Positions 416 through 63,700 of a stretch of 64,000 nt of DNA are shown in pieces. Made by a program: the position numbers and the translations under genes. Numbering within the stretch: position 1 is the stretch's first letter; every line of letters begins with the position of its first letter. Origin of the DNA: Malacoraja senta (taxonomy: Eukaryota); contig CM075990.1 in assembly GCA_038087875.1 (NCBI GenBank), positions 3,350,001 to 3,414,000 on the forward strand, written 5' to 3'. Under the pieces are notes generated by a model. That model was given only the letters and a program-made list of their open reading frames with translations. It had not been told where the DNA came from and ran no database searches.

Positions 416-843
416 GTGCTTGTCTGTACGGAGTTTGTACGTTCTCCCGAAGGTAGACACTAAAATGCTGGAGTAACTCAGCGGGACAGGCAGCATCCCT
501 GGAGAGAAGGAACAGGTGACGTTTCAGGTCGAGACCCTTCTTCAGAGATGAGTTACTTCAGCATTTTGTCTCGACCTTCGATTGAAACCAGCATCTGCAC
601 TTCTTTCCTGCACAGTTTGTACATTCTCCCCGTGACCTGCATGGGTTTCCTCCGGGAAGCTCCAGATTCCTCCCACATTCCAAAGACGTACAGGTTTGTA
701 GGCCAATTGGCTTGGTATAATTGTAAATTGTCCCTAGTGTGTGTAGAATAGTGTTAGTGTGCGGGGATCGCTGGTCGGCACGGACTCGGTGGGCCGAAGG
801 GCCTGTTTCCGTGCTGTATCTCTAAGCTAAACTAAACTAAACT
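416..843 (+). mobile_element. HE1-type V-SINE (5'-truncated) interrupted by a PLE mini-element
   Basis: V-domain tgtctgtacggagtttgtacgttctcccc...tcctcccacattccaaagac; 3' ggtgggccgaagggcctgtttcc; (aaact)n tail. Confidence 0.85.
449..613. mobile_element. Penelope-derived fold-back mini-element with hammerhead-like motif (minus, 518-545)
   Basis: Inverted arms aaaatgctggagtaactc / gagttacttcagcatttt; 17-bp TSD agtttgtac(g/a)ttctccc at 432-448 and 614-630. Confidence 0.8.
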
Positions 844-914
844 GGTGCAATTTTAAACTGCCAATAACTCCTCTTTGGTCATTTTAAACCAAAGAAAACT
901 GGAGGATGGTACAT

Positions 915-1053
915 GTATTTCTTATCATGTATCTGTACACTGTAAATGGCTCGATTGTAATCATGTACTGTCTTTCCGCTGACTGGTTAGCACGCAACAA
1001 ATGCTTTTCACTGTACCTCGGTACACGAGACAAATTAAACTGAACTGAACTGT
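915..1053 (+). mobile_element. Rex1/Babar-like LINE 3' UTR fragment
   Basis: gattgtaatcatgt...gcttttcactgtacctcggtacacg matches the 3' end of the Rex1-like element at 10635-11190. Confidence 0.6.
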
Positions 1054-1059
1054 ACTGTT

Positions 1060-1195
1060 ATTAAGAAGGGCCGCAAAGAGACGACAGGGAACTACAGGCC
1101 GCTGAGCCTGACAACAATGGTGCGGAAATTACTGGTGGGGATTCTGACTGACAAGATCCGCCAGCACTTAGATAGACAAGACTGATTGGGAACAG
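1060..1195 (+). mobile_element. CR1 LINE ORF2 fragment (pre-RT region)
   Basis: Translates to KKGRKETTGNYRPLSLTTMVRKLL; NYRPxSL is a LINE RT-proximal motif. Confidence 0.7.
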
Positions 1196-4105: not shown

Positions 4106-4359
4106 AGTGGCTGGGGATGCTATCTGCGGTAAAGGATCATAAAACTGAAGGAAATAATGGCAGCCTCCTCCCGTCTCCCTGCCCATAGTCAGGTCATGAT
4201 TGCTAGCTCATGCCTAGATGACACAGTGGTGGGAGCCCTGTATATCATAAACACACCGAGGAACGTCACCTATCAAGACAGTCTCCAGCAATTCAATTTA
4301 CTTCCGAGAGCCTTTCGGAGGCATGCCGTAAAAATGGTCAAATAATACACTTAAGAGGA

Positions 4360-5075
4360 TAGACACAAAGGGCTGGAGTAACTCAGCGGGACAGGCAGCA
4401 TCTCTGGGTGACAATACGGGTCGAGACCCTTCTTCAACCCAAAACGTCACCCGTTCCTTCTCTCCAGAGTTGCTGCCTGTTCCGCTGAGTTACTCCAGCA
4501 TTTTGTATCTAAATTAAAGCTGCTGATGTTGAAGGCACTGTAGAGGGCTTCAGACCCGAAACATCACCCTTCCTTGTTTATCCAGAGATGCTGCCTGTCC
4601 TGCTGAGTTAAGGGCCTGTCCCACGGGCATGCAACTCCATGCGGCAAGCGCGACCTAACCGCAAGCGGGGGCCGCGCGGAGGTCGCGGGGCCGGTCCCAC
4701 TTCGATCGCGGGAGCCGCATGGAGTTGTGCGGAGCTGGTCCCGACATCACGCGGGGCTCCGAAAAACTGACACTGTTCAAAAATTCCGTGCGGCAACGGC
4801 CTGCCACCCCGCAGCCGCATCGAGGCCCTGCGCGCCACATCGACGCCTCGCCGCAGTACGCACCATCTTGACGGCACTCGACCTCCGCGCGGCCCCCGCT
4901 TCCGGTTTGGTAGCGCTTGCCGCATGCAGCCGCATGCTGGTGGGACCGGCCCTGTACGGGGATCACTCGACCTCCGCGCGGCCCCCGCTTGCGGTTAGGT
5001 CGCGCCTGCCGCATGGAGTCGCACGCCCGTGGGACAGGCCCTTTACTCCACCATTTTGTGTCTATCTTCGGTGTC
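4360..5075. mobile_element. Composite PLE fold-back element hosting a MITE
   Basis: 13-bp TSD acacttaagagga at 4347-4359 and 5076-5088; inverted pLTR arms plus a second tandem arm. Confidence 0.75.
4611..5042. mobile_element. PIF/Harbinger-type MITE (GC-rich subfamily)
   Basis: TIRs agggcctgtcccacgggc...gcccgtgggacaggccct; TSD TTA at 4608-4610 and 5043-5045. Confidence 0.92.
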
Positions 5076-5399: not shown

Positions 5400-5505
5400 T
5401 CCATCAGTCTGAAGAAGGGTCTCGACCCAAAACGTCACCCATTCCTGCTCTCCAGAGATGCTGCCTGTCCCGCTGAGTCACTCCAGCATTTTGTATCTGT
5501 CTTCC
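5400..5505 (+). mobile_element. PLE pLTR fragment with hammerhead-like motif (G12 to A variant)
   Basis: ctgaagaagggtctcgacccaaaacgtc at 5409-5436. Confidence 0.75.
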
Positions 5506-5653
5506 TTTTAAATCCATATGCGATGACTTGCAAGAATACACGTGGTGTATTTTGCTGCCATTGTGATAATGAGGTGAAAGGCACTTGCAAAAGAAATAAG
5601 ACACCAGGTGCTGGAGTAACTCAGCGGGTCAGACTGCATCGCTGGAGAACATG

Positions 5654-6254
5654 GATAGACAATAGACAATAGACAATAGGTGCAGGAGTAGGCCATTTGG
5701 CCCTTCGAGCCAGCACCGCCATTCAATGTGATCATGGCTGATCATCCCCAATCAGTACCCCGTTCCTGCCTTCTCCCCATATCCCCTGACTCCGCTATCT
5801 TTAAGAGCCCTATCTAGCTCTCTCTTGAAAGCATCCAGTGAACCTGCCTCCACCGCCCTCTGAGGCAGAGAATTCCACAGACTCACCACTCTCTGTGAGA
5901 AAAAGTGTATCCTCGTCTCCGTTCTAAATGGCTTACTCCTTATTCTCAAACTGTGGCGCCTGGTTCTGGACTCCCCCAACATCGGTAACATGTTTCCTGC
6001 CTCTAGTGTGTCCAAGCCCTTAACAATCTTATATGTTTCAATGAGGTACCCTCTCATCCTTCTAAACTCCAGAGTGTACAAGCCCAGCTGCTCAATTCTC
6101 TCAGCATATGACAGTCCCACCATCCCGGGAATTAACCATGTAAACCTACGCTGCGCTCCATCAATAGCAAGAATGTCCTTCCTCAAATTATGGGACCAAA
6201 ACTGCACACAATACTCCAGGTGTGGTCTCACTAGGGCTCTGTACAACTGCAGAA
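5654..6254 (-). mobile_element. CR1/HER1 LINE 3' fragment inserted in a PLE mini-element (5600-6377)
   Basis: YRALVRPHLEYCVQFWS...RTRRHSLRI ORF2 C-terminus; (ctattgt)n tail. Confidence 0.92.
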
Positions 6255-7344
6255 GGTGATGTTTCAGGTCGGGATCCTTCTTTAGTCTGAGTCGGAAGAT
6301 TCCTAACTCAAAACCTCACCTAACCATGTTCCCCTGAGATGCCGACTGACCCGCTGAGTTACTCCAGCACTCTGTGACTTAGAGAATTGCAATTTGGCTG
6401 CATTGTGCAGGCCAATGTATACCTGAATACTTCATTTGTATCAGTTACAAGTGTTTTTAATAAATGTATTACAAGTATTATTTTCAAATTCTTTTACATA
6501 ATTTAATTATTTTATATTATTCGAATCAATGTTTTCCAGAGATGCTGCCTGACCCGCCGAGTTACTCCAGCACTTTGTGTGTCATTTTTGGTAAACCACC
6601 ATCTGCAGTTCCTTGTTTCAGCTTGTATGAAATGTTGGCCATTACTGTGGCTCGTAAGACTTAAGTCAAAGTCAGAGTATAGAAGAGGAGGTAGTTGAGG
6701 CAGGTTTGAAGAGACAGGTACATGGATAGGACAGGTTTGGAGGATATGGGCCAAACGCAGGCAGGTGGTTCTAGTCTAGATGGGACATGTTGGTCGGTAT
6801 GGGCAGGTTGGGCCAAATGGCCAGTTTCCATACTGTATGACACTATGATCCTATAAGACATAGGAGCAGAATTTGACCATTCAGCCCATCGAGTCTCATC
6901 CCTGGCTTGGCAGCAGCTCCCCCACCTCCAGATTGTGGGTCTGGTGTTAATGATGTTTCGTGACTGAGCTTCCATCCAGAGGCCTGGGGCAGTGATCCAG
7001 AGACAAGAGTTCAAATCTCACCACGGTAGCAGGGGAATTTAACTTCAAGTAATTAACTAAATTCAGGATTTTATTTTTAAACTTGCATCGGTGATGCTTG
7101 CTGCCACGCAAGCTCAGAGTGCTGGTAACATAATCGTGGGCACCAGTGTTAAATAGAGGCGGTGAGGCTCACGAGACATTTCAGATGTCGATCTCCTTAC
7201 AGGTGAAGTTATCAGATTGTTGCAAAAAACCATGTGATTCCTTCATGTCATTTCGGGAAAGAACACTATCGTCCTTAGCAAGAAAAACATATGCTGGTGG
7301 AGGAACTCGGCAGGCCAGACGAAAGACGATGTCAAGCCCGAAGA

Positions 7345-7550
7345 AGGCAACCGAGAGACCGCGTAGACCAAGACGGACTGAGCGTAAGCGTTCAGTGAAA
7401 CGACCGGCGAGTCTGAGCTTGGTCCCGCCGATATATAAGAGCCCACCTTGAGAACAATGGATACAGTCGACGAGGTTGGAGGAGGTGCAAGTGAATCTCT
7501 GCCTCACCTGAAAGGACTGTCGGAGTCCCTGGATGGAGTCGAGGGAGGAA
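7345..7550 (-). mobile_element. Penelope-like element GIY-YIG endonuclease fragment (degenerate)
   Basis: FTCTSSNLVDCIHCSQGGLLYIGGTKLRLAGRFTERLRSVR matches the PLE Uri/GIY-YIG pattern; flanked by pLTR pieces at 7290-7345 and 7560-7690. Confidence 0.85.
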
Positions 7551-7693
7551 CCACAATAGGGTGCAGAAAGGAACTGCAGATGCTGGTTTAAATCGAAGAT
7601 AGACACAAAATGCTGGAGTAACTCAGCGGGACAGGCAGCATCTCCGGAGAGGAGGAATGGGTGAAGTTTTGGGTCGAGACCCTTCTTCACCCT

Positions 7694-8005
7694 TGGGCGA
7701 GTCCAGAACCAGGGGCCACAGTCTTAGAATAAAGGGGAGGCTGAGGTGAGAAAAAACTTTTTCACCCAGAGAATTGTGAATTTGTGGAATTCCCTGCCAC
7801 AGAGGGCAGTGGAGGCCAAATCACTGGATGGATTTAAGAGAGAGTTAGATAGAGCTCTAGGGGGTAGTGGAATCAAGGGATATGGGGAGAAGGCAGGCAC
7901 GAGTTATTGATTGGGGACGATCATCCATGATCACAATGAATGGCGGTGCTGGCTCGAAGGGCCAAATGGCCTCCTCCTGCACCTATTTTCTATGTTTCTA
8001 TGTTT
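7694..8005 (+). mobile_element. CR1/HER1 LINE 3' fragment
   Basis: gagtccagaaccaggggccacag...gcacctattttctatgtttctatgttt tail. Confidence 0.9.
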
Positions 8006-8775
8006 CAGACTGATGTCAGGGGAGAGTCTGAAGAAGGGTCTCGACCCGAAACATCACCCGTTCCAGCATTTTGTGCCTATCTTCGAACTACAGTAGAGTA
8101 GCTGGTCGTATCTCCTCATTGTTTGTGGGACCTTACCACACCCAGATATCTGTCACTTTTCCCATACACTAACAGTAGCAACTCGTCACAGAAAGATTAG
8201 TTGTAAAAACATGTTGGCACTCCTGCAATGAAAGTTAAATCTTTCTTTGTCGAACCATTGCTCATATTACAGCATGGCCAAGCATTTTTGTGGGGAAAAT
8301 AAAATATGGCTTTAACATAGGATTAGTGTAAGAGTTGGTGATTGTCAGGAACTCAGTGTGCTTCCGGAACAATTTCCATGATATATTTCTCAATATTACT
8401 GAGTTTGATATATCTTTCAAATGGTGAGTTTGCTTCATGCTAATGCTCCTTAACCAATTGCCTCTAGGTGCAGCGAAGAAACATTTGTATTCAATAACTT
8501 ATAGCCGTTAATGTGTTTTCAATATATGTGATCTTTGTGCATTTTTGCTATTAGTTAACAAGATGGACGTGACAATGGCCCAGATTACAACCATACGTTA
8601 GTTAAACGCGATTGTCAATCGCTATTGCTTTAATACGCCATTACCCTCAGGGAAAGTCAATATTTGTGGATCATGTGCATCTACCTGATAACCCATGTAG
8701 TACAGAGCCTGTTTGGTTTGGTTTAATTTAGTGTCATTTAGTTGAGATTAATTTATTTTAGTTTAGTTTAGTTTC

Positions 8776-14332: not shown

Positions 14333-14840
14333 ATGATAGACACAAAAAGTAAAGTAAAGTATCCTTTATTGTCATTCAGACATTTCAGTCTGAACGAAAT
14401 TGTGTGCCTTGCAGTCATAACATAGAATAAAATAACAAAACATGCACTTAACATAGTTTAACATCCACCACAGTGAGTTCACCAGGCACCTCCTCACTGT
14501 GATGGAAGGCAAAAGTCTTAAAGTCCTTGTCTCTTCCCTCCTCGTCTCCCTCTGCATTGAGGCGATCCAGCTTTCGATGTAGGGACCCTGCCGGGTGACG
14601 GTACGATGGTCAAACGCTGGAGTAACTCAGTGTGTAAGGCCGCATCTCTGGGGAAAAGGAATAGGTGACGTTTCGGGTCGGGACCCTTCTTTAGACTGAG
14701 AGTCAGGTGAAAGGGAAACAAGAGATACAGACGGTGATATAGAGAGATATAGAACAAATGGATGAAAGAAATGCAAAAAAGTGACGATGACAAAAGAAAC
14801 AGGCCATTGGTGGCTGTGGGCTGGGTGAAAAGAAAACTAA

Positions 14841-16032: not shown

Positions 16033-16326
16033 GTTTAGTTTAGTTTAGTGATACAGTGCGGAAACAGGCCCTTTCGGCCCACCGATCCCCGCCCATTAAC
16101 ACCATCCTACACCCACTAGGGACAATTTTTACATTTACCAAGCCAATTAACCTATAAACCTGTACGTCTTTGGAGTGTGGGAGGAAACCGAAGATCTCGG
16201 AGAAAACCCACGCAGGTCACGGGGAGAGCGTACAAACTCCGTACAGACAGCACCGGTAGTCGGGATCGAACCCGAGTCTCCAGCGCTGCATTCGCTGTAA
16301 GGCAGCAACTCCACCGCTGCGCCACA
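16033..16326 (-). mobile_element. HE1-type V-SINE
   Basis: Reverse-complement SINE motifs and (tttag)n tail. Confidence 0.85.
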
Positions 16327-16540
16327 AGGAACTGCAGATGCTCATTTATTGAAAAAAGACACAAACTGCTGGAGTGACTCAGCAGGTCAGGCAGCTTCCC
16401 TGGAGAACATGGACGGGTGACGTTTCGGGTTGGGATTCCCCCTCAGTCTGAAGAAGGGTCTCGACGCGAAACATCACCTGTTCATATCCTCCAGAGATGC
16501 TGCCTGGCCCGCTGACTTACTCCAGCACTTTGTGTCTATA
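16327..16540. mobile_element. PLE fold-back mini-element with hammerhead-like motif at 16448-16475
   Basis: Inverted arms; ctgaagaagggtctcgacgcgaaacatc. Confidence 0.8.
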
Positions 16541-16917
16541 TTTTTCAGCTGAGTTGATCCCAGGATAAATCTATGGGCCAACTTTTAAATGGTTGAGTTT
16601 CAGTTTGGTTTATTGTCACCTGCACCGAGGTACAGTGAAAAGATTTGTTGCGTGCTAACCAGTCGGCGGAAAGTCTTTCCTATTTGATTAATTATGGCCT
16701 AAAATCCAGAAACAACTTCGGAAGTCCCATTTAAAATTGTTGTGCTACGTCCTTTTGACAATATTAATATCCAGAGATGTTCAGGTGTGATTGAAAACAG
16801 CTCCACCGTCTACACCACTGTGCCAGCCGCTGTGACTCACTTAAAGATAGTTGGAAAGATAAAGGAATTGAACAAAAAGTTATAAACAATTTTGAGGGTT
16901 GTCAGAAACTGTTTAGT

Positions 16918-17380
16918 TTGTATTTCGCTTGGGCAGCTTACAACCTGACGCAATGAAATTGATTTCTCTAACTTCAAGTAACCCTTGCTTTCCCCCTCTC
17001 TCCACCCTCCCCCACCCTAGTTCTCCGACTAGTTCCACTGTCCTCCTGATTAATTGTACAGTTTAGACAATAGACAATAGACAATAGGTGCAGGAGTAGG
17101 CCATTTGGCCCTTCAAGCCATTCAATGTGATCATTGCTGATCACGTTTGTAAGTTTGTAAGCCTCGTTGTCACCTACCCCTCAGCCAACAATGAACCATT
17201 CTACATTTCCTTGACCATCGACTGCTTTGATCTGTTCTTTTCACACCTTACCCTCCCATATCCCTAGTTCCATTCTCCCCTGACTCTCAGTCTGAAGAAG
17301 GGTCTCGACCCGAAACATCACCTTCTCTCCAGAGATGCTGCCTGTCCCGCTGAGTTACTCGAGCATTTTATGTCTATCTT
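16918..17380 (+). mobile_element. Penelope-like element 3' end: ORF C-terminus, 3' UTR and pLTR with hammerhead-like motif
   Basis: FRLGSLQPDA...DFSNFK* (stop at ~16980), pyrimidine-rich UTR, then ctgaagaagggtctcgacccgaaacatc at 17292-17319. Confidence 0.85.
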
Positions 17381-17399
17381 AACTGTTTATTAGTTTCAA

Positions 17400-18114: not shown

Positions 18115-18152
18115 AGAGGCCGAGAATGAGATCATCAGCTCTCTCCTCTGAG

Positions 18153-18885
18153 CTAGACACAAAATACTGGAGTAACTCTGCGGGACAGGCAGCATCGCTG
18201 GAGAGAAGGAATGGGTGACATTTGGGGCCGAGACCCTTCTTCAGATTGAGTGTCGGGCGAGAGAGAGACATAGAGATATGGAAGTGTTTAAGAAAGAACT
18301 GCAGATGCTGGAAAAATCGAAGGTAGACAAAAATGCTGGAGAAACTCAGCGGGTGAGTTTCTCCAGCAAACTCACCAGACCCTGGTCTCGACCCGAAACA
18401 TTGCCTATTCCTTCGCTCCATAGACGCTGCCTCACCCGCTGAGTTTCTCCAGCATTTTTGTCTACCTTAGAGATATGGAAGGGTAAGGTGTGAAAACTAG
18501 CCATCAAAGAGGAAGAAGTCAAGGAAAATGTAGAATAAATCATAGTTAGCTCGGGGAAGTTGACAACAAAGCTTACAAAGTAACATTTAATCAGGAGGAC
18601 AAAGTTAATTTTATTTTGTAAGCCTCGTTGTCACCTTCCCCAAGCTAACAATGACATATTCGACATTTTCCTTGAACTTTGTCCCCTTTGATCTCTCGTT
18701 TTCACACCTTACCCTTCCATATCTCTCGTTTCCCTCTCCTCTGACACAGTATGGAAGAAGGGTCTCAACACAAAACGTCACCCGTTCCTTCTCTCCAGAG
18801 ATGCTGCCTGTCCCGCTGAGTTACTCCAGCATTTTTGCATCTATCTCCGGAGTCAACCAGCATCTGCAGTTCCTTCCCACACACT
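18153..18885. mobile_element. Long PLE fold-back element with a nested second-subfamily PLE mini-element (18285-18467)
   Basis: Outer inverted 3' UTR plus pLTR arms; inner insert has a 14-bp TSD tagagatatggaag (18271-18284 and 18468-18481). Confidence 0.8.
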
Positions 18886-19437: not shown

Positions 19438-20034
19438 CTGCCACTGGTTGAGAAGATAAGTTATGTCCTGGAGATTATAAAAACCTGCGGATGCTGGAAT
19501 CTTGAGCTAAACACAAAGTGCTGGAGAAACCCAGTGGGTCAGGCAACATCTGTGGAGGGAATGGACAGATGGCATTTAGGGTTGTGATTTGATTTGGATT
19601 GCTGTCGATTTGTGATCTTGCAATTCATAATAAACTAAAGGTGTCATAAGATTCAACAATTGATCGATAGGTGGAGGGTTGATTTATTGATAGATACAGT
19701 ATGGAAACAGGCCCTTCGGCCCACAGTGTCCATGCCGGCCATTGATCACCCGTTCTCACTAGTTCTATGTTATCCCACTTTTATATCCACTCGTTACACA
19801 CTAGGGGTCTTTTCCAGTGGCCAATTAATTGACAAATCTCCCATGCCTTTGGGATGAGGGGGGAAACCGAAGCACCTGGAGGAAACCCCCGAGGTCACAG
19901 GGAGAACGTGTAAACTCCGCACAGCCAGCACTCGGTCAGGATCGAACCAGGGTCACTGGTGCTGTGAGCATTCTGCCGCCCACAGTAAATACAGTTTCCA
20001 CTACATGGAAGAGGGATTAAAATTCTTTCCCATA

Positions 20035-21249: not shown

Positions 21250-21387
21250 TGAAGAAGGTCTGAAGAAGGGTCTCGACCCGAAATGTTGCCTATTTCCTTC
21301 GCTCCATAGATGCTGCCTCACCCGCTGAGTTTCTCCAGCATTTTTGTCTACCTTCGATTGTCCAGCATCTGCAGTTCCTTCTTAAAC
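21250..21387 (+). mobile_element. PLE pLTR (subfamily B) inserted in a Rex1-like 3' UTR
   Basis: ctgaagaagggtctcgacccgaaatgtt at 21260; flanked by aactgcaccta / aactgtacta. Confidence 0.75.
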
Positions 21388-22831
21388 TTGAACTGTACTA
21401 TTATTGAACACATACACGTGACAATAATAGTGATAAACTAAACTAAATAGTTTCATTGGGAAATTGGAAAATTCTCAGGAGAGGTCTGAGAATACATTGG
21501 TTACAAATTTATTTAGGGGCACAGAATTTTTGTATGTAATAGGACCAGATTATTGATAGAACATTAAAGGCTCTAATTGAATGGATATTCTTATCAGTCG
21601 GTTTACTGATGAGAGGCTAATTTTACAGCTGAACCTTTAACCTTGGAGGAACGAACAAGATGAGGAAACCAATTTTTAAAAAGATAAGTGAATGTGCAAT
21701 TTTAGCATACTTTCAGTGACAAAATATCATCAATGCAGCAAATTTAAATAAAACTGGTAAAATAAAGGGGGAAAAATTTTGCTTTATTTTTTTTTTCCTT
21801 GCTGGTTAACGATGGCTTGGACGTCTTGGGTTCAATTTTAATTTAACATCCAGGCTATGCAGAGACTGATTCAAAAAACAATCATTCCCCTTAACTGCAA
21901 GTACATCGGGCAAATGCGGCAATGTTCGTGTCTGACAGTTTATACATTAAAATGAATTACCTAACCTTTCCAACTTCCAGTGACAAAACAGAAAAAATGA
22001 AAGATAATGGGTTATTATTCACTGAAGGATCCTATACATAATAATGATATCATTAATAATCACTGTGATACTCAGGAGTTCCTGCAGCTTTTAAAAAACA
22101 TTTAATGGTATTACATTTTGAATCATCAGTCCTAGTCCAGTCCTAGTTATTCAGCTGGAAAGCAGAGAGAAAAATGTATTGTATTATATTTCTTGCAGTC
22201 TGTTACCGAGCCAGTCATGAGTCAATTTGGCAAATAATGCAAGCAGAACCGGAGGAGAAAGCACATCAGCACCTGCTTAAAGTGCAAGACAGTAAGCATA
22301 CGATAGATTTACAAGCTGTCGCAACATGCATCTGACAAAAGCAATAACGAGAATTAGCTTACAGAAGCTTTGCTGATAAATTTTATTTACCATCACCAGT
22401 GCTGGAGCCATGCGGGTCAAACACTTTCAAGTCCCCGCCGCTGGCTGGCTCGACTTAGAGAGGTGGCTGGGGGCACAGAGAGGGAGTGGGGTGTGGGAAG
22501 GAACTGCTGACGCTGGTTTACACCGAAGATAGACACCAACAAAAAGCTGGGGTAACTCAGCGGGGTCAGGAGGCATCTCTGTAGATAAGGAATGGGTGAC
22601 GTTTCGAGTCAAGACCCTTCTTTAGTCCCCGGTTGCACCACAGGACTTGATTTTATTTCTTTTTGCTTACATGCTAGGCTTGATATTCAGAAGAATGACT
22701 AACACTTAATAAAATGCCAATGGTTGATGGAAGAGCAAGTGGATTTGTGAAAAGGTGCTGAGCTGCTTATAACATCATGGATGACACAGTTCGCATAGGT
22801 ATATATGTATTTATATATATAGATAGATAGA

Positions 22832-23749: not shown

Positions 23750-24000
23750 GTAGGAGAGAACTGCAGATGCTGGTTTAAATCGAAGGTAGACACAAAATGC
23801 TGGAGTAACTCAGCGGGACAGGCAGCATCTCTGGAGAGATGGAATGGGTGATGTTTCGTTTCAGTCACGAGATCGCGTAATTTGCATGCCAAGGACACGT
23901 AAGTGGGACAGGCCCTTTATTCCAACATTTTGTGTCTACCCTCACCCCTTCATGACCTTCTTCTAAAGAAGGGTCCCAACCCGAAACGCCACCTAGCCAT
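23750..24000. mobile_element. PLE mini-element containing the right end of a Harbinger-type MITE (to 23916)
   Basis: taagtgggacaggccct followed by TTA and ttccaacatttt, the pLTR continuation. Confidence 0.7.
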
Positions 24001-24065
24001 TCTTTAGACTTTAGCCTTAGAGAGATACAGCATGGACAGCCATGTGGGCGAGGAGGTACACAGTG

Positions 24066-24370: not shown

Positions 24371-24772
24371 TAACAAGGAAGTTGGCCATTGGAACCATGT
24401 TGGATCCAAGAAGCAATGCCATTATCTCCTTTCCCCCTCTCCTTATTTCCCTGTAGCCATCCTAGTTATTATGTCCATACCACTTTGATTCAGCTGCCAC
24501 ATAAAAACAGGGAGATCTCCACTTAAGACAGAGTTTAATTTCTTTGTGTGGCAACTTTCCACATTCAATAATCCATCAGCAGATCTTTGGAATGGATCTT
24601 TAGATCTTTGGAATCTTCAGTGGAGATGGAAACTGGGGCACCTTGAAGATACAAACTCCACAAAGGGGAAGATACAAACTCCACAAAGATGGCTCTGGAG
24701 ATCAGGATTGAACCCAGATCTCGGGAGCTCTAAAGCATCTCACCTTCTGTTGTGCCGACCCTTCAGTTTCAC

Positions 24773-24965
24773 CGAAGATAGACACAAAGTGCTGGAGTAA
24801 CTCAACGAGTCAGGCAGCGTCCCAGGAGAAAAAGGACGGGTGGCACAAAATGCTGGAGTTTACCCATCCTTTTTCACCAGAGATGCTGCCTGACCTGCTG
24901 AGTTACTCCACCATTTTTGTGTCCATGCTCGGCATAAACCAGCATCTGCAGTTCCTTCCTACACT
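24773..24965. mobile_element. PLE fold-back mini-element
   Basis: 12-bp TSD cttcagtttcac at 24761-24772 and 24966-24977. Confidence 0.8.
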
Positions 24966-25016
24966 CTTCAGTTTCACTCTTCATTGGCAATGGCCGGGTT
25001 AAATGTGATGATGGGA

Positions 25017-42791: not shown

Positions 42792-43371
42792 TAAGAGGTC
42801 CTAGTTCTGGTTGGACATAGAGAGTAAATGGTAGGGAGAAGGGCATTGCCTACAGAGAGATGCCGGGGTACAGGTCTATAGCTCTGTGAATGTGGTGACA
42901 CAGATGGACAAGGTAGTGAAGAAGATCCCCCCTCCCCAGCCTAACCCCCACCCTAGACGTCCTACCAGATCTACTGTTCGCATCCTTGTATCACTCTTGA
43001 TACCACCTCTTCCCCAGCCAACAATAGGCCGTTATGGGCTCCACCCTTCCGCAGGTCATTTATTGCCAGCCCTGAGTTGTCCTGGCGTTTCTCGCTTCCA
43101 GTTTATCCCCCCCGACCCCCCCACTCACCCCCCACTCCACCCCAATGCCCCACCACTTTCAGACTGAAGAAGGGTTCCGACCCAAAATGTCGCCTATTCT
43201 TTTTCTCCAGAAGTGCTGCCTGGCCCGTTGAGATACCCCAGCATTTTGTGTCTTTCTAAACCAGCATCTCCAGTTCCTTCCTACACACGGTATCTGCTAT
43301 ACTTGCCTTGATAAGCCGAGGCGTTGAGAATAAGAGTTGGGGCGCCATGTTGCACTTGCACAAAACAATGG

Positions 43372-44600: not shown

Positions 44601-45527
44601 GATGAGAGGCAAGATGTTCGCACAAAAAGTGGTGAATGTGTGGATGGAGTAAAGGCGGAGGAGGTGGTGGATGCAGGCACAATGACAAGCTTTAAGAGAC
44701 ATTTGGACAGGTACCTGGACACAGTCACAATGGGCCTAATGCGAGTAGATGGGATTAGCGTAGAAAGGCATAGTGATTGTCATACATAAAGTGGACAGAA
44801 GGGCCTATTTTTGCTCATAATTTCATAAATTCTAGGAGCAGAAGTAGGCCATTCGGCCCATCGAATCTACTCCGCCATTCAATCATGGCTTGTTGTGCTG
44901 TACGTTTCTATGGTTCCATGATTCTGCAAGTTTTACCTCCACTTCAAGGCCCACAGCCCCTAAAGTATTTTAGTTTACAGCGCGGGTACAGGCCCTTCGG
45001 CCCACCGAGTCCGCACCCATCAGCTATCCCCGCACACTAACACAACCCTACACACACTAGGGACAATTTACACTTATACCAAGTCATTAAACCTACAAAC
45101 CTGCACGTCTTTGGATAGGAAACCGAAAATCCCAGCTAAAACACGAGCAGGTCACGGGGAGAACGTGCAAACTCCGTACAGACAGCACCCGTAGTCAGGA
45201 TCTGTACGTGTAACCTGTACATTTACCATGTCGCATCCCTATTCCCCACATCCCATTCCCTCAGCCCCTCACACAGTAGGTTGGCTCCCTTTCAGCTCTC
45301 GTGGGGCTGAATCAGTTTAGCTTATTGTCACGTGTACCCGAGGTACAGTGAAAAGCTGCTGTTGCGTGCTAACCAGTCAGCAGAAAGACCATCTCACGGA
45401 ACGAGTGAAACTCCGAAACCTCGGCCCTGCTTCGAGTGGAAGCTGGGATTCGCGATCGTACCCTGCTTCCTACAACCAATCAGTTCCAACCAAGTCAGGC
45501 CCCGAGCTATCCAGCTTTTAAACCACT

Positions 45528-45730
45528 GGGGAGAAGGAATGGGTGATGCTTTGGTTTGAGACCCTTCATCAGACTCTGCCTGAAGATTCAGATTCGGTCC
45601 GAAGAAGGGTCTCGACCTGAAACGTCACCCATTCCTTCCCCCCAGAGATGCTGCCCGTCCCGCTGAGTTACTCCAGCATTTTGCGTCTATCTTCGGTGTA
45701 AACCAGCATCTGCACTTCCTTGCTGCACAA
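45528..45730. mobile_element. PLE fold-back mini-element
   Basis: Opposed hammerhead-like cores (minus ~45545-45572, plus ~45599-45626). Confidence 0.75.
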
Positions 45731-49489: not shown

Positions 49490-49622
49490 GCAGTCTGAAG
49501 AAGGGTCTCGACCCGAAACGTCGCCCATTCCTCCTATCCAGAGATGCTGCCTGTCCCGCTGAGTTACTCCAGCATTTTGTGTCTATCTTCGGTGTAAACC
49601 AGCATCTGCCGTTCCTTCCTAC
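49490..49622 (+). mobile_element. PLE pLTR with intact hammerhead-like motif
   Basis: CTGAAGAAGGGTCTCGACCCGAAACGTC at 49495-49522 followed by pLTR and tail. Confidence 0.85.
49495..49522 (+). ncRNA. Minimal type I hammerhead ribozyme-like motif (representative copy)
   Basis: CUGAAGA core, extra A, stem II GGGU/ACCC with CUCG loop, GAAA, palindromic ACGU stem III, GUC triplet; activity not demonstrated. Confidence 0.7.
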
Positions 49623-50323
49623 GCGGTAAGATTTAGAAGCCCTCCAATCTGATGGAACGTTACATTTGAGGTTCCTTTCACTGTGTGATAGTGATAGTGG
49701 CAATAATGGTATATCTTGAAGGAACACTTTAAATATGTCCTCGGAAGGAACTGTAAATGCTGGTTTACACTGAAGATTTGAGTTTGATGTTTAGTTTCTT
49801 GTCACGTGTACCGAGGTACATTGAACACCTTCAGCTGCGTGCAAACCAGCCAATGGAAAGTCAATACATGATTACAATCGAGCCATCCACAGTGCACAGA
49901 TACATGATAAAGGGAATAAAGTGAATAGCGTTTAGTGCGAGATAAAGAGAGTAAAGTCCGATCAAGGACAGTCCGAGGGTCTCCAATGTGGTAGATAGTA
50001 GTTCAAGACTGCTCTCTAGTTGTTGGTAGGACGGACATCAAATGCTGGAGTAACTCAGCGAGCCAGGCAGCATCCCCTGAATCTCCGTCTGAAGAAGGGT
50101 CTCGCCCCAAAATGCCTCCTCTTCCTTTTCTCCCGAGATGCTGCCTGACCCGCTGAGTTACTCCAGCTTTTTGTGTCTATCTTAAATTTGTCTCCTGCTT
50201 TATCATCTCTCACCCCACTCTCTCTTTTATTGAGTATCAATTGTAACTGCAGTGAAGTATGAGCTAACTGCAGCAAGAGTTGGCTTAGAACAACAGCTGG
50301 AACTGAAGTAGAAGTCAAAGGGT

Positions 50324-50623
50324 GTAGGGAGAAACTGCAGACGCTGGTTTAAACCGAAGATAGACACAAAAGGCTGGAGTAACTCAGCGGGTCAGGCAGC
50401 ATCTCTGGAGAAAAGGAATTGGTGACACTTTGGGTCAAGACCCTTCTTCAGACTGGGAGTCAGGAAAAAGTTTTATATCTCTCGATATCATCGTCTGTAT
50501 CTCTGGTTTCTCTTTCCCCTGACTCTCAGTCTGAAGAAGGGTCTCGAGCCGAAACGTCACCTGTTCCTTTTCTCCAGAGATGCTGCCTGACCCGCTGAGT
50601 TACTCCAGCTTTATGCGTCTATC
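50324..50623. mobile_element. PLE fold-back mini-element
   Basis: 15-bp TSD tagaagtcaaagggt at 50309-50323 and 50624-50638; hammerhead-like core at 50531-50558. Confidence 0.85.
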
Positions 50624-51375
50624 TAGAAGTCAAAGGGTTTCATTTTAAATGCTTCTTTGGAGTCCATCTCAAGCCTAGCATACCTGAGGATGTTGTACGC
50701 AGTAAGCATGACAAAAATGATTTATAAATTATGTAATCTCCCTTCATTTAAGGGACTTGTTGCTTCATCAGATGAAATTACAAACAGGTTTAGGTTCATT
50801 ATTGTCGCCTCTACCAAGGTACATTAAAAAGCTTTCTTTGCATGCTATCCAATCAGATCAGATAATACGGTACATGGATGCCATCAGGTCAAACTCAAAT
50901 ACAATAGTGGAGCAAAGGGGAATATAGTTCTCAGCATTGTAGCACATCAGTTCCACAGACAAAGCCCAATGTCGACAATGGGGTAGAGGTGAATCGGACA
51001 GTACCCTAAATTAAGGCCATTCAGCCCATCAGGTTTACTCCACCATTCAATAGGGTGGCACGGTGGCGCAATGGTAGACTTGCTGCCCTACAGCACCAGA
51101 GACCCGGGTTTGATCCTGCCTAAGGGTGTTTGCCTGTACGGAGTTGGTACGTTCTCCCCGTGACCTTGTAACTTGTCCCTAGTGTGTGTAGGATAGTGTT
51201 AGTGTATGGGGAACGCTGGTCTGCACGGACTCCGTGGGCCGAATGGCCTATTTCCGCACTGCATCTATAAACAAAACTAAACAATCATGGCTGATATGGT
51301 CAAAACCTTGACAGGCACATCATGTAGATTCAAGAAGATCTAAGATTCTTAGCTGCTTACAAAGTTAATACAGGT

Positions 51376-57676: not shown

Positions 57677-59903
57677 GGGTGGTGGGTGAATGGAATGAGC
57701 TGCTGGAAGAGGTAGTTGAGGCAGGTACTATCACAATGGTTAAGAAACATTTAGACAGGTACATGGATAGGCGGGGTTGGAGGGATTTGGGCCAAACGCA
57801 GGCAAGTGGGCCTAGTGTAGATGGGGCATGTTGGCCAATTTGTCAGGCACAAATCTAATGATGGCCAATAGATAAAGGACTTTTTCTATTGATTCGTCCA
57901 GAACCAGGAACTAAAAGGGAGTCTACAATATAGGTTAATGTCATAGGAGCAGAATTAGGCCATTCAGCCCATCGAGTCCACCCCACCATTCAATAATGGC
58001 GGATTTAGCTTTCCCTCTCAACCCCATTCTCCTGCCTTCGCGTAACCTTTGAAATACTACAACGTCGGCAATGACAAAGTATTTCCATTGTAAATTATCC
58101 ACGCTGCAAGTGAACATGGTGTAAGGCTTTAAGGTCGCAAGTTGTGATTGATGATAAGTCATTAGTGGGATAGATGGTCCCATTATGGGGAAGGTTTCCT
58201 CTGGCAGGCAGTTCACCTCTTGCCCTCAGTAAGCAGCATAGTCAGTCTCAGGACTTATTCAGCCAAGCTTTCATAAGTTCATAAGTTATAGGAGCAGAAT
58301 TAGGCCATTCGGCCCATCAAGTTTAATCCGCCATTCAATCATGGCTCATCTACCTTTCCCTCTCAACCCCATTCTCCTGCCTTCTCCACATGACCCCTGA
58401 CACCTATACAAATCAACAATCTGTCAATCTCCACCTTAAAAATATCCATTGACTTGGTCTCCATCTCCAATTCCACACATTCTCCACCCACCGACTAAAG
58501 AAATTGTTCCTCATCGCCTTCCTAAAGGGACGTCCTTTTATTATGACGCCATGGCCTCTGGTCCTAGACTCTCCCACTAATGGAAACATCTTGCCCACAT
58601 CCACTCTATCCAGGCCTTGCACTATTCGCTAAGTTTCAACGAGGTCCTTCCAGAGTGCTACAGAAGAAGAAGTTCCAGAACATGGGCTGGAAAAGGTGCA
58701 GAGAAGATTTACAAGGATGCTGCCAGGTCTCGAGAGCCTGAGCTATAGGGAGAGGTTGAGAAGGCACAGTTGCACAGCGGTAGAGTTGCTGCCTTACAGG
58801 GCCAGAGACCCGTGTTTAATCCTGACTATGGGTGCTTCCTGTACGGAGTTTGGAAGTTTTCCCTGTGACTGTGTGGGTTTTCTCCTGGTGCTCCGGTTTC
58901 CTCCCACATTCCAAAGACGTGCAGGTTTGTAGGTTAATTGTCTTTGGTAAAATTGTAAATTGTCCCTACTTTGTAGGATAGTGCTAGCATACGGGGTGAT
59001 CGCTGGGCGGCACGGACCTGGTGGGCTGAAGGGCCTGTTTTCACCCTGTATCTCTAAAGTCTAAAGTCTAACTGCTATGACTTTATTCCTTAGAGCCTAG
59101 GAGGATGCGGGGTGATCCTATAGTGTATAAGATCATGAAAGGAATAGATAGGGTGAATGCACAGTCTTTTACCCAGATTAGGGGAATTAAGAATCAGATA
59201 ACATAGGTTTAAGGTGAGGGGGTGAAAGATTTAATAGGAACCTGAAGGGCAACTTTTTTACTCAAAGTGTGGTGGGTGTATGGAACAATTTGCCAGAAGA
59301 GGTAGTTGAGGCAGCTTCCATCATAACATTTCTCCCTCATCCTCCTGTGCTTCAAGGAATAGAGTCCTAGCCTGCCCAACCTCTCCCTACAGCTCAGGCT
59401 TTCGAGTCCTGACAACATCCTCGTAAATCTTCTCTGCTCTCCTTCCAGCTTAACAATATGGTGATTGGATTCTACCTTGTTAGAGATGGTCAATGTCAGA
59501 CTTGAATCATACAAAATGGCGACAGAAACATGCCGACTCTTGCGAAGCAGGGTCTCGACCCGAAAGGTCACCCATTCCTTCTCTCCAGAGATGCTGCCTG
59601 TCCCGCTGAGTTACTCCAGCATTCTGTGCCTGTCTTTTGTGACTCTTCTACACTGCCTCAGTGTAATGTACTACTGGTACACTCTTGTACTTAGGTATGA
59701 TGGTGCCTATGTACAGTAAGGTTTTTACTGAACTGTACGCAATAAAGGAATTTCACTCTCCCTAGGTACACGTGGCAATAAAGTACCATTGCTCATCATA
59801 TTCATTTACTGATTACTTGAAGGAATAACTGGTTTAGTTGCACGTAGTGATCTCAAGTAGGAAGTTATAGGGCCTGGATATCATGTCCCAACTGAAAGAC
59901 TTA

Positions 59904-60233
59904 TGGGCCTTTCCCACGTACGCAACTTTTTCGGCGACTGCCGGCACCCGTCATAGATCGTTGCAGGTTGCCGAAAATGTTCAACATGTTGAAAATCCAG
60001 CAGCGACCAGGACAAGGTGCGACTCTTTGGGCGACTACTCACGACCATACAGGCTTCACCCCACGACATGTCGCCTGTACGGTCGTGAGTCGTCTCCTCA
60101 GTCGCCCAAAGAGTCGTAGCGCCTTTCTGGTCGCCGCTGGATTTTCAACATGTTGAACATTTTCGGCGACCTGCAATGACCTATGACAGGTGCCGGCAGT
60201 CGTCGAAAAATTTGCGTAAGTGGGACAGGCCCA
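59904..60233. mobile_element. PIF/Harbinger-type MITE (mirrored at 62277-62604)
   Basis: TIRs tgggcctttcccacgtacgcaa / ttgcgtaagtgggacaggccca; TSD TTA/TCA. Confidence 0.88.
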
Positions 60234-60548
60234 TCAGACCTACAGTAGACCAGATAACTATCAATACCTTGTTGCTGAATATTTTTATTTCTGGCTAAGT
60301 CATAGAGTCATAGAGATATACAACATGGAAACAGGACCTTCTGAACATCTTGCCCATGCTTAGTTTAGTTTAGTTTCGAGAGACAGTGTGGGAACAGGTC
60401 CTTCGGCCCACTGTGCCCATGCCGGCCAGCGATCACCCGCACACTAGCTCTATCCTACGCTGACCAAGTTGGCATAGTGGGCTAGTCCCATTTGCCTGGA
60501 TTTGTTCCGTAGCTGTTTAAATTACAAGTGGACAATGTCACACTGACG

Positions 60549-60760
60549 TGTTAAAGAAGGAACTGCAGATGCTGGAAAATCGAAGGTAGACAAAAATGCT
60601 GGAGAAACTCAGCGGGTGCAGCAGCATCTATGGAGCGAAGGAAATAGGCAACGTTTCGGGCCAGTCTGAGGAAGGGTTTCAGCCCGAAACGTTGCCTATT
60701 TCCTTCGCTCCATAGATGCCGCTGCACCCGCTGAGTTTCTCCAGCATTTTTGTGTACCTT
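60549..60760. mobile_element. PLE fold-back mini-element, subfamily B (mirrored at ~61754-61963)
   Basis: 16-bp TSD caatgtcacactgacg at 60533-60548 and 60761-60776; core ctgaggaagggtttcagcccgaaacgtt at 60666-60693. Confidence 0.88.
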
Positions 60761-63700
60761 CAATGTCACACTGACGCCAGGTGAAATATCAGATAATACC
60801 ACAGAGCCAGAAAGTGACTCCAACGTGTGAGGCAGGCTCGGAGATTATTGTATGTTTGTCTTCAGTTTCAGTTTTTAGTTTCAGTTTCAGAGATACAGCG
60901 TGGTGGAAACAGGCCCTTCGGCCCATCGAGTCCATGCCGACCTTATACTGGTTCTATTTATTTTTAAGGTGGAGATCCTTGGTTACTAAGAGTGTCAGGG
61001 GTTATGGGAGAAGGCAGGAGAATGGGGTTGAGAGGGAAAGGTAGATCAGTCATGATGGAATGGCGGAGTAGACTAGATGGGACGAATGGCCTAATTCTAC
61101 TACCAGAGCTTATGAACTTATCCTACACTCTAGGGTCAATTTACAGAAGCCAATTAACCCACGAACATGGATAGACGCAAAGTGCTGGAGTAACTCAACG
61201 GGTCAGGCAAAATCACTGGAGAAAAACCATGGGTGACAATTCAGGTCAGGACCCTACTTCAGACCAGACCCAAAACGTCACCCATCGTTTTTGTCCAGAG
61301 ATGCTGCCTGACCCGCTGACCTACTCCAGCACTTTGGGTCTATCCATGTTCGTGGGTTAATTGGCTTCTGTAAATTGACCCTAGAGTGTAGGATAAGTTC
61401 ATAAGCTCTGGTAGTAGAATTAGGCCATTCGTCCCATCTAGTCTACTCCCGCCATTCCATCATGACTGATCTACCTTTCCCTCTCAACCCCATTCTCCTG
61501 CCTTCTCCCATAACCCCTGACACTCTTAGTAACCAAGGATCTCCACCTTAAAAATAAATAGAACCAGTATAAGGTCGGCATGGACTCGATGGGCCGAAGG
61601 GCCTGTTTCCACCACGCTGTATCTCTGAAACTGAAACTAAAAACTGAAACTGAAGACAAACATACAATAATCTCCGAGCCTGCCTCACACGTTGGAGTCA
61701 CTTTCTGCTCTGTGGTATTATCTGATATTTCACCTGGCGTCAGTGTGACATTGAAGGTACACAAAATGCTGGAGAAACTCAGCGGGTGCAGCGGCATCTA
61801 TGGAGCGAAGGAAATAGGCAACGTTTCGGGCTGAAACCCTTCCTCAGACTGGCCCGAAACGTTGCCTATTTCCTTCGCTCATAGATGCTGCTGCACCCGC
61901 TGAGTTTCTCCAGCATTTTTGTCTACCTTCGATTTTCCAGCATCTGCAGTTCCTTCTTTAACACGTCAGTGTGACATTGTCCACTTGTAATTTAAACAGC
62001 TACGGAACAAATCCAGGCAAATGGGACTAGCCCACTATGCCAACTTGGTCAGCGTAGGATAGAGCTAGTGTGCGGGTGATCGCTGGCCGGCATGGGCACA
62101 GTGGGCCGAAGGACCTGTTCCCACACTGTCTCTCGAAACTAAACTAAACTAAGCATGGGCAAGATGTCAGAAGGTCCTGTTTCCATGTTGTATATCTCTA
62201 TGACTCTATGACTTAGCCAGAAATAAAAATATTCAGCAAAAGGTATTGATAGTTATCTGGTCTACTGTAGGTCTGATGGGCCTGTCCCACTTACGCAAAT
62301 TTTTCGACGACTGCCGGCACCTGTCATAGGTCATTGCAGGTCGCCGAAAATGTTCAACATGTTGAAAATCCAGCGGCGACCAGAAAGGCGCTACGACTCG
62401 GGCGACTGAGGAGACGACTCACGACCGTACAGGCGACATGTCGTGGGGTGAAGCCTGTATGGTCGTGAGTAGTCGCCCAAAGAGTCGCACCTTGTCCTGG
62501 TCGCTGCTGGATTTTCAACATGTTGAACATTTTCGGCAACCTGCAACGATCTATGACGGGTGCCGGCAGTCGCCGAAAAAAGTTGCGTACGTGGGAAAGG
62601 CCCATAAGTCTTTCAGTTGGGGACATGATATCCAGGCCCTATAACTTCCTACTTGAGATCACTACGTGCAACTAAACCAGTTATTCCTTCAAGTAATCAG
62701 TAAATGAATATGATGAGCAATGGTACTTTATTGCCACGTGTACCTAGGGAGAGTGAAATTCCTTTATTGCGTACAGTTCAGTAAAAACCTTACTGTACAT
62801 AGGCACCATCATACCTAAGTACAAGAGTGTACCAGTAGTACATTACACTGAGGCAGTGTAGAAGAGTCACAAAAGACAGGCCACAGAATGCTGGAGTAAC
62901 TCAGCGGGACAGGCAGCATCTCTGGAGAGAAGGAATGGGTGACCTTTCGGGTCGAGACCCTGCTTCGCAAGAGTCGGCATGTTTCTGTCGCCATTTTGTA
63001 TGATTCAAGTCTGACATGACCATCTCTAACAAGGTAGAATCCAATCACCATATTGTTAAGCTGGAAGGAGAGCAGAGAAGATTTACGAGGATGTTGTCAG
63101 GACTCGAAAGCCTGAGCTGTAGGGAGAGGTTGGGCAGGCTAGGACTCTATTCCTTGAAGCACAGGAGGATGAGGGAGAAATGTTATGATGGAAGCTGCCT
63201 CAACTACCTCTTCTGGCAAATTGTTCCATACACCCACCACACTTTGAGTAAAAAAGTTGCCCTTCAGGTTCCTATTAAATCTTTCACCCCCTCACCTTAA
63301 ACCTATGTTATCTGATTCTTAATTCCCCTAATCTGGGTAAAAGACTGTGCATTCACCCTATCTATTCCTTTCATGATCTTATACACTATAGGATCACCCC
63401 GCATCCTCCTAGGCTCTAAGGAATAAAGTCATAGCAGTTAGACTTTAGACTTTAGAGATACAGGGTGAAACAGGCCCTTCAGCCCACCAGGTCCGTGCCG
63501 CCCAGCGATCACCCCGTATGCTAGCACTATCCTACAAAGTAGGGACAATTTACAATTTTACCAAAGACAATTAACCTACAAACCTGCACGTCTTTGGAAT
63601 GTGGGAGGAAAACCGGAGCACCAGGAGAAAACCCACACAGTCACAGGGAAAACTTCCAAACTCCGTACAGGAAGCACCCATAGTCAGGATTAAACACGGG

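What the first reader, a model, noticed from the sequence alone, without database searches (positions are those of the whole stretch)
449..61963. Dispersed family of hammerhead-ribozyme-bearing Penelope mini-elements
Seen in sequence: more than 20 copies of CTGAAGAAGGGTCTCGACCCGAAACGTC or close variants. Plus-strand copies start at 5409, 8028, 16448, 17292, 21260, 33727, 37189, 37382, 43164, 49495, 50531 and 60666; minus-strand copies include 518-545, 14667, 29643-29670 and ~50425. The motif parses as a hammerhead core: CUGANGA, one extra A, stem II GGGU-CUCG-ACCC, GAAA, a near-absent palindromic stem III (ACGU) and an NUH triplet (GUC, AUC or GUU). Established knowledge: Penelope-like elements carry minimal type I hammerheads in their pLTRs, and such minimal motifs are thought to cleave as dimers. 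Inference: a non-autonomous, ribozyme-carrying retroelement family has amplified to roughly one copy per 3 kb here. If the locus is transcribed, the intact copies are potential self-cleavage sites in either orientation.
Basis: partly seen in the sequence, partly recalled or inferred. Interest (0 to 1): 0.85.

Follow-up and report, generated by a model that had tools for sequence, protein, structure and literature searches.

The report
Penelope retroelement ends with minimal hammerheads
These are hundreds of thousands of short, mostly decayed end-pieces of a Penelope-type jumping gene in what is likely a shark or ray genome, each carrying a known kind of minimal self-cutting RNA motif, and their edges suggest that they were likely copied from uncut RNA that starts three letters before the motif.

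Summary
In detail: all 16 cited coordinates are right. The window has 36 motif copies (0 by chance) and 56 fragments, and the genome has 18,728 exact 28-mers. The motif lies in the pLTR of a Neptune-type Penelope-like element (RT, CX4CXXC linker, GIY-YIG). Relatives at 40-55% protein identity carry the same fold at the same place with covarying stems. It is a minimal type I hammerhead of the kind described in 2014; this scan noted the kind before in another genome.

Corrections: stem I is only 2 bp; only 4 window copies are intact; the 'G12A' variants are CpG decay; the family is genome-wide; no mini-only subfamily appeared, so 'non-autonomous family' is not shown.

Not found in print: 77% of copies that reach the ribozyme begin at its 5' edge rather than at the cut site, often behind an extra non-template G. 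This points to run-off reverse transcription of uncut, probably capped RNA starting at TCAGT. Inverted pairs mostly join one tailed and one untailed arm (49 of 63). Cleavage was not testable.

The parts
49491..49623 (+). Solo mini copy (-4..+129; +1 = C3 of the core at 49495), strictly intact hammerhead, with tail and a 7-nt target-site-like repeat
49495..49522 (+). Minimal hammerhead core, stem II, stem III and cleavage triplet; predicted cut after 49522
29633..29674 (-). Intact hammerhead, copy cut off at +38 next to a LINE fragment; upstream resembles the 3' UTR (by eye)
442..613 (.). Head-to-head pair (442-546 minus, 547-613 plus)
4353..4610 (.). Head-to-head pair 4353-4437/4434-4518 plus copy 4538-4610; fragment 5043-5092 lies nearby
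5404..5523 (+). Solo mini copy, G12A by CpG decay
5591..5659 (-). Fragment +30..+98
6237..6617 (.). Pair 6237-6290/6285-6380 and fragment 6529-6617
7367..7531 (-). Fragment of the element's GIY-YIG endonuclease region, directly behind copy 7562-7693
7562..8092 (.). Copies 7562-7693 (minus, with tail) and 8025-8092 (plus)
14609..14834 (-). Copy with about 135 nt of 3' UTR
16321..16544 (.). Head-to-head pair joined on the TCAGTCTGA palindrome; one tailed arm and one untailed arm
17156..17394 (+). Copy with about 131 nt of 3' UTR
18146..18882 (.). Cluster: 18146-18249(-), pair 18286-18357/18384-18479, 18754-18882(+) with about 140 nt of UTR
19479..19584 (-). Fragment +15..+123
21257..21386 (+). 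Solo mini copy, subfamily with GUU triplet
22492..22628 (-). Solo mini copy with tail
23750..24005 (.). Fragments 23750-23858(-) and 23962-24005(+)
24766..25143 (.). Pair 24766-24842/24860-24964 and copy 25017-25143(-)
26240..26350 (-). Fragment of the C-terminal endonuclease region (approximate ends, by eye)
27991..28403 (.). Copy 27991-28079(-) and pair 28166-28294/28299-28403
29060..29158 (-). Fragment +32..+130
31837..32056 (.). Head-to-head pair, short arm and long arm
33722..33824 (+). Copy with short UTR, G12A by CpG decay
37187..37493 (.). Copy 37187-37266(+) and pair 37262-37377/37378-37493
43159..43286 (+). Old copy (15% diverged) with tail
45523..45728 (.). Head-to-head pair
50011..50632 (.). 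Pairs 50011-50077/50085-50189 and 50323-50455/50526-50632
59544..59642 (+). Copy (mirrored at 62880-62966)
60551..60768 (.). Head-to-head pair; the plus arm has an intact hammerhead (60666); mirrored at 61747-61961
61167..61375 (.). Head-to-head pair at the centre of the 5.5-kb palindrome

Best explanation
The repeats are pLTR end-pieces of a Neptune-type Penelope-like retroelement that carry a minimal type I hammerhead fold, and most were likely made when the element's reverse transcriptase primed about 100 or 130 nt inside the RNA and ran off the 5' end of an uncut, probably capped transcript. Shown: the unit runs from about -4 to +98 or +131 (+1 = C3). It follows the stop codon and 3' UTR of an RT/GIY-YIG ORF and, in partial tandems, precedes the ORF's start codon. 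The fold covaries across related families. 5' ends pile up at the ribozyme's 5' edge and not at its cut site. Inferred: transcription starts at the A of TCAGT (-3; a second start at -6), which also explains the 2-bp stem I. The two 3' ends are two RT start sites, as measured for the Anolis element. Head-to-head pairs are two such cDNAs, one per start site, joined at palindromes. The ribozyme would cut only as a protein-assisted dimer in RNA of source elements. The dispersed copies are mostly dead and decay neutrally.
For: Element: HHR unit directly 3' of long RT/EN ORFs in most of 29 ORF-bearing loci; Pfam RVT_1 and GIY-YIG, below curated cut-offs; best named hits are shark and ray proteins at 60-69%; L016 and L097 run UTR-HHR-tail-ATG-ORF. 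Ribozyme: 13 of 36 related metagenome loci have the descriptor 95-151 nt after the endonuclease, 0 on the antisense strand and 0.0 in shuffles; 31 cells change on both sides, 0 of 500 shuffles reach this; subfamily changes fall only at permissive positions. Run-off: 189 of 245 at-risk copies end at +3..-15 (0.043 per nt) against 0.006-0.010 per nt at +21..+50 and upstream of -15; letter matches fall to near background at -6; 29 of 36 in the evenly spaced sample. Extra G before A(-3): G/A ratio 4083/3332=1.23 against 921/2281=0.40 one letter further out and 0.68-0.83 expected; 37 of 37 UTR-continuing copies have C there; 37 of 40 fetched G loci are insertion junctions; in the 100 listed ribozyme-ribozyme joints the non-C letters are G30 A3 T5 (counted by eye). 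Two ends: peaks near +98-102 and +124-130; 49 of 63 classifiable inverted pairs are long plus short, p=1e-5. Target-site-like repeats in 17 of 97 solo copies, 4.5 expected.
Against: Copies that read through from the ORF start (one subfamily, chosen by a start-codon motif) stop at the ribozyme's edge only 1 of 17 times (one of the 16 classed by eye). A simple single-start linear RNA does not predict this; circles, end jumps or multi-unit templates must be added. About two thirds of edge copies with AGT still have the template C at -4 (44 of 66). Some G junctions are microhomology (L262, L278). The genome-wide G excess is only 1.5-1.8 fold. The 13 relatives were picked by a descriptor that demands pairing, so one search is partly circular, and 23 of 36 relatives showed no motif. 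The modelled double hammerhead (-6.7 kcal/mol) lies far above the dimer minimum (-23.1), and stem II probability is 0.00-0.42 in window copies against 0.99-1.0 in 3 relatives. No RNA end data and no cleavage assay.
Confidence: 0.72

Rival explanations
1. The minis are a self-propagating SINE-like non-autonomous family: copies that keep the internal promoter and ribozyme are transcribed on their own and re-copied by the Penelope protein.
For: Sharp shared boundaries and very high copy number; the same extra-G signature is expected; mini-only fraction is 0.84-0.90 in the two oldest subfamilies; a 384-bp x13 ORF-less tandem array of UTR, hammerhead and ORF start exists elsewhere in the genome, like the retrozymes of bioRxiv 10.64898/2026.07.22.740005.
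Against: All 5 subfamilies have UTR-continuing members and stop fractions are alike (0.67-0.90). No shared 5' flanks among 201 unmatched copies except local duplicates. The flank of 49495 is unique in the genome.
Confidence: 0.17
2. Ordinary random 5' truncation of LINE-like copies; the pile-up is caused by hairpins or palindromes (TCAGNCTGA, stem II) that stop the RT or guide joining, not by an RNA end.
For: At least 9 inverted junctions centre on TCAGNCTGA and 2 on the stem II/GAAAC palindrome; the end rate already rises at +4..+20 (0.015-0.020 per nt); read-through copies pass the site.
Against: Solo copies also stop there (107 of 156); a palindrome does not explain the position-specific G; a structural block should also stop read-through cDNAs, and it does not.
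Confidence: 0.08
3. The motif descends from a hammerhead but no longer cleaves in this lineage; it is kept as promoter or protein-binding sequence.
For: Stem I is 2 bp against 2-5 bp in relatives (11 of 13 have 3 or more); the fold is not predicted; no pile-up of 5' ends at the cut site (18 of 366, 0.008 per nt); Anolis hammerhead mutants still insert in vitro (PMC11167929).
Against: Subfamily changes keep pairing (U-A to U-G in stem I, C to U at H17); 2-bp helix I occurs in published PLE hammerheads (PMC4209133 supplement); ribozyme-ribozyme tandem joints are enriched (343 against 54), and 27 of 100 listed joints land at +27/+28, the cut site (by eye). This rival is partly compatible with the best explanation.
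Confidence: 0.2

Closest known systems
Minimal hammerheads (min-HHR) in pLTRs of metazoan Penelope-like elements (Cervera and de la Pena 2014, PMC4209133)
   Same: Same consensus (CUGANGAH, G10.1-C11.1, palindromic 15.2-16.2, no loop 3); same place in the pLTR; mostly single copies plus opposite-strand pairs; the Acropora Neptune motif in their Fig. S3 is nearly the same design.
   Different: No cartilaginous fish in the supplement parts read (parts 1-2 of 3). Their highest counts were about 4,000 and 9,000; here 18,728 exact 28-mers and a rough 230,000-460,000 motif copies. Stem I is at the short extreme. They give no map of 5' ends.
Neptune clade of EN+ PLEs (passages of PMC8557442)
   Same: RT, CX2-5CxxC linker (here CX4CXXC), C-terminal GIY-YIG with conserved C, C, H, H; partial tandems; inverted 5' copies; 30-40 bp tail at one end.
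   Different: Nematis also has the linker; no tree with reference clades was built, so the clade name rests on the linker, the vertebrate host and the resemblance to the Acropora Neptune motif.
Poseidon element PAc of Anolis (Frangieh et al. 2024, PMC11167929)
   Same: Two internal RT start sites that define the tail; hammerhead upstream of them; uncut RNA serves as template.
   Different: In PAc the ORF starts inside stem II; here the start codon lies about 35 nt past the tail. PAc is of another clade. Run-off minis and an extra G are not described in the text read; its Fig. S2 could not be seen as text.
Non-LTR retrozymes (bioRxiv 10.64898/2026.07.22.740005)
   Same: PLE-derived, hammerhead-bearing, non-coding; one such tandem array exists in this genome.
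   Different: Retrozymes are defined by tandem units; the window's copies are solo or inverted.

Membership tests
Metazoan PLE minimal type I hammerhead | Core CUGANGA ... GAAA ... NUH with bulge before stem II and G10.1-C11.1 | tested here: met
   invariant in 5 subfamily consensuses
Metazoan PLE minimal type I hammerhead | Helix II of 4 bp or more with covariation | tested here: met
   100% of cells paired, 2 of 4 pairs change on both sides, 17 sequences; relatives were chosen by a pairing descriptor
Metazoan PLE minimal type I hammerhead | Helix I closing the core (usually 3-5 bp) | tested here: inconclusive
   only 2 bp here; covaries in relatives; 2-bp cases are published
Metazoan PLE minimal type I hammerhead | Palindromic helix III that requires a dimer | tested here: met
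   ACGU in the consensus; broken by CpG decay in many copies
Metazoan PLE minimal type I hammerhead | Located in the pLTR, sense to the ORF | tested here: met
Metazoan PLE minimal type I hammerhead | Self-cleavage after NUH | not testable with these tools
   no assay; no raw RNA reads
EN+ Penelope-like element, Neptune type | One ORF with RT and C-terminal GIY-YIG | tested here: met
   Pfam hits below curated cut-offs; 669 homologues; all ORFs seen are interrupted, longest open stretch 586 aa
EN+ Penelope-like element, Neptune type | CX2-5CxxC linker between RT and EN | tested here: met
   C305, C310, C313 conserved in alignment A1; translations
EN+ Penelope-like element, Neptune type | Partial tandems, inverted 5' copies, 30-40 bp tail | tested here: met
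EN+ Penelope-like element, Neptune type | RT tree placement in Neptune rather than Nematis | not tested
   no reference sequences were on hand
Non-autonomous SINE-like family | Own lineage without coding partners | tested here: not met
   5 of 5 subfamilies have UTR-continuing members in 261 copies; the sample is small against the genome
Non-LTR retrozyme | Two or more tandem units, each with a hammerhead | tested here: not met
   no such array in the window; met elsewhere at G000:C1:28902509-28907143

The most novel reading that the evidence does not exclude
This genome holds a fossil record of the Penelope replication cycle. Capped RNA starts 3 nt before the hammerhead. Uncut RNA gives hundreds of thousands of strong-stop-like minis marked by a cap-derived G. 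One RT dimer fires both internal start sites to make long-plus-short inverted pairs. Ribozyme-cut, circularised or end-jumped RNA gives the partial tandems, which pass the start site 16 of 17 times. That would give the PLE hammerhead a defined job: removing the cap end and switching the RNA from message to template.
Probability: 0.3. Interest if true: 0.72.

Novelty: new member of a known kind. Interest (0 to 1): 0.4.

Why it matters
The ribozyme kind is known, and most copies in the window are dead, so the catch itself is ordinary. Two things add value. First, the number: this appears to be the largest set of minimal hammerheads among the papers read. Second, the role of PLE hammerheads is an open question (stated as unclear in PMC8557442), and copy edges here give testable coordinates: a start at -3/-6, RT starts near +98 and +131, no footprint of cut RNA among minis, and read-through among ORF-start copies.

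Tried and rejected
Rfam scan: no hit at gathering score; this says nothing against a minimal hammerhead.

Local amplification: rejected, the family is genome-wide.

5' ends set by ribozyme cleavage: rejected, background rate at +27..+32.

CAG|T as splice acceptor with a shared first exon: rejected; no shared upstream sequence among 201 unmatched copies, and the -4/-5 letters follow the template.

Fixed cDNA length: rejected; tailed and untailed copies both start at the edge (67 and 97 copies).

G before AGT as a template variant: rejected (37 of 37 C; 3 of 40 loci UTR-continuing).

5' transduction from 49495: flank unique, one test only.

An error of mine, corrected: one search counted inverted arms as UTR-continuing (99 of 217); replace it.

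Selection on genomic copies: mixed. Non-CpG core 3.9% against body 7.2% but stem II 9.2%, and G12 22.5%; not taken as support.

Whole-unit folding: z=-0.34.

Expression: no RNA holder listed; contigs cannot show ends.

Host exons: 0 Pfam hits in 134 of 144 candidate ORFs submitted.

Earlier scan notes: none by place or by sequence.
Full report
Numbering: +1 is C3 of the hammerhead core (window 49495 in the model copy); the predicted cut follows +28.

1. Observation. All 16 cited sites carry the motif. The window has 17 copies within 3 mismatches and 36 within 7, with none in shuffles. A profile of the unit finds 56 fragments, 8.7% of the window. The window is G000:C14:3350001-3414000 of a 1.94-Gb genome that holds 18,728 exact 28-mers. 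Twenty evenly spaced 10-kb sites on contigs C1-C9 hold 34 motif copies and 71 fragments. This extrapolates roughly to 230,000-460,000 motif copies (Poisson limits only). The window is two to three times denser than those sites.

2. The element. A window ORF (7181-7723, minus) reads like a PLE endonuclease (recognition recalled) and has 37,463 first-look candidates in the genome. In 29 fetched ORF-bearing loci the unit lies, in most, 100-300 nt after the stop codon, behind a pyrimidine-rich 3' UTR that differs among subfamilies. The ORF has RT and GIY-YIG matches and a CX4CXXC linker, the Neptune/Nematis mark according to passages of PMC8557442. The closest named proteins are from sharks and rays at 60-69%, with coral-type hits near 50%, so the host is likely an elasmobranch. 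L016 and L097 are partial tandems: UTR, hammerhead, body and tail run straight into the ORF's start codon about 35 nt later. The unit is therefore both the 3' end and the 5' leader of the element. No uninterrupted ORF was seen. In 261 near-complete copies the median divergence from the subfamily consensus is 7%, and none is identical to it.

3. The ribozyme. The motif fits the min-HHR consensus of PMC4209133 (read: parts 1-2 of 4 of the main text and parts 1-2 of 3 of the supplement). From 80 metagenome loci I took the 40 whose match reached the endonuclease end; 36 had at least 250 nt downstream. Of these, 13 carry the descriptor 95-151 nt after the ORF match, sense strand only. With 4 own-genome copies they show paired changes in stems I and II, with the caveat that the descriptor selected for pairing. 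Among 5 subfamily consensuses the changes within -5..+30 are at +13, +14 (loop II), +28 (H17) and +29 (U-A to U-G). Core, stem II and stem III change at 0 of 21 positions against 16 of 66 downstream (p=0.007). Against activity in the copies: stem I is 2 bp; the fold is not the predicted minimum; G12 is G>A in 52 of 249 copies, like C>T at the partner C (46); 42 of 261 pass the strict test, and 4 in the window. Published assays found no monomer activity and low dimer activity (PMC4209133), and protein-assisted cleavage that is not needed for insertion (PMC11167929, parts 1-2 of 4 read).

4. Anatomy of the ends. 3' ends peak near +98-102 and +124-130, a tail of about 35 nt. Head-to-head neighbours outnumber tail-to-tail ones 102 to 47. 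Of 85 tight pairs, 63 could be classed and 49 join a long with a short arm. After removing duplicated stretches (463 fragments, 437 usable), 189 of 245 copies that reach +3 end between +3 and -15, while the rate at the cut site is background. In 107 solo copies the match to the template fades from +3 to -5 and is near background from -6. Their upstream DNA is of ordinary composition, and 17 of 97 show target-site-like repeats. The letter before A(-3) is G more often than expected: ratio to A 1.23, against 0.40 one letter further out and 0.68-0.83 expected. It is C in 37 of 37 UTR-continuing copies, and 37 of 40 fetched G loci are junctions. In 100 of 343 listed ribozyme-ribozyme joints the non-C letters are G30, A3, T5, and GATCAG occurs 6 times (by eye; p=7e-10). 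That an RT adds a letter opposite a cap or at a template end, and that TCAGT is an initiator consensus, is recalled knowledge. Passages of PMC2377424 show an internal, initiator-type promoter in Drosophila Penelope.

5. Mechanism. Most likely the RNA starts at -3 (or -6), the RT primes at +98 or +131 of the 5' pLTR and runs off, and the product inserts alone or joined head-to-head with a second cDNA. A 3-nt leader also limits stem I to 2-3 bp. The main counter-result: among 58 loci chosen by the start-codon motif, copies that read through from the ORF stop at the edge only 1 of 17 times (p=4e-9 against 189 of 245). Those must come from templates without a free end there: circles, as proposed in PMC4209133, end jumps, or multi-unit transcripts. 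I could not separate these. The SINE-like rival predicts the same edges; it is weakened but not excluded by the lack of a mini-only subfamily.

6. Novelty. The kind is known. Single copies, opposite-strand pairs and the one-sided tail are described (PMC4209133, PMC8557442), and one cartilaginous fish was surveyed for retrozymes in bioRxiv 10.64898/2026.07.22.740005 (parts 1 and 3 of 5 and passages read; its supplements are closed and may list this family). The scan's note e1-7857333 reached the same class on another genome. Searches found no paper on this family, on the 5' pile-up or on the extra G. The library lacks most subscription journals and repeat databases, and Fig. S2 of PMC11167929, which maps copy ends, was not readable.

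7. Verdict. Observation confirmed, interpretation partly supported. New member of a known kind, interest 0.4, raised by the copy number and by the testable footprint of the RNA's start.

Noticed in passing
window 58510-63999: A 5.5-kb palindrome (98.7%) centred on the head-to-head pair at about 61255; window 52519-61344 recurs at 100% just past the window (G000:C14:3417525-3426350). Likely a fold-back assembly artefact or a very recent inverted duplication.
   Followed up: partly
G000:C1:28902509-28907143 (L118-L130): 13 tandem 384-bp units of 3' UTR, hammerhead, tail and ORF start: a retrozyme-like array in which dimer cleavage is geometrically possible. Other short spacings (254-349 bp) are listed.
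   Followed up: partly
L019:923-1058; L022:2406-2471: Tiny tandems of the ribozyme alone (34 and 38 bp period). 343 such joints genome-wide against 54 for a control; landing sites cluster at +27/+28 and +31..+36 (by eye).
   Followed up: partly
L104-L173: Many copies with the ORF start end 27-70 nt after the start-codon motif, perhaps a third RT start site.
   Followed up: no
window 5593-6315, 27091-27704, 29094-29635, 30134-31258, 51376-51877, 54416-54967: 3' fragments of a LINE (RVT_1 at 30821-31210, E=6e-18); CR1/L2-like by recall.
   Followed up: no
window 1186-1737 and 19858-20307: LINE ORF2 C-terminal fragments; zf-RVT match at the first (E=7e-5, below cut-off); L1-like by recall.
   Followed up: no
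window 4607-5074 and 37999-38611: GC-rich related repeats with internal 89-, 41- and 21-bp tandems, between inverted ends starting AAGGGCCTGTCCCA; possibly a non-autonomous DNA element.
   Followed up: no
window, about 30 copies (e.g. 9311-9572, 11578-11861, 14049-14338): A second abundant repeat of about 290 bp, SINE-like by recall.
   Followed up: no
runs X1, X8, X19, X23 (organisms A, C, D, G): The same unit with the same boundaries is abundant in other organisms (3,630 to 158,705 contigs laid).
   Followed up: partly
L086:1100-2090; L097:1540-1780: The ORF's N-terminal region holds a variable 27-bp tandem repeat.
   Followed up: no
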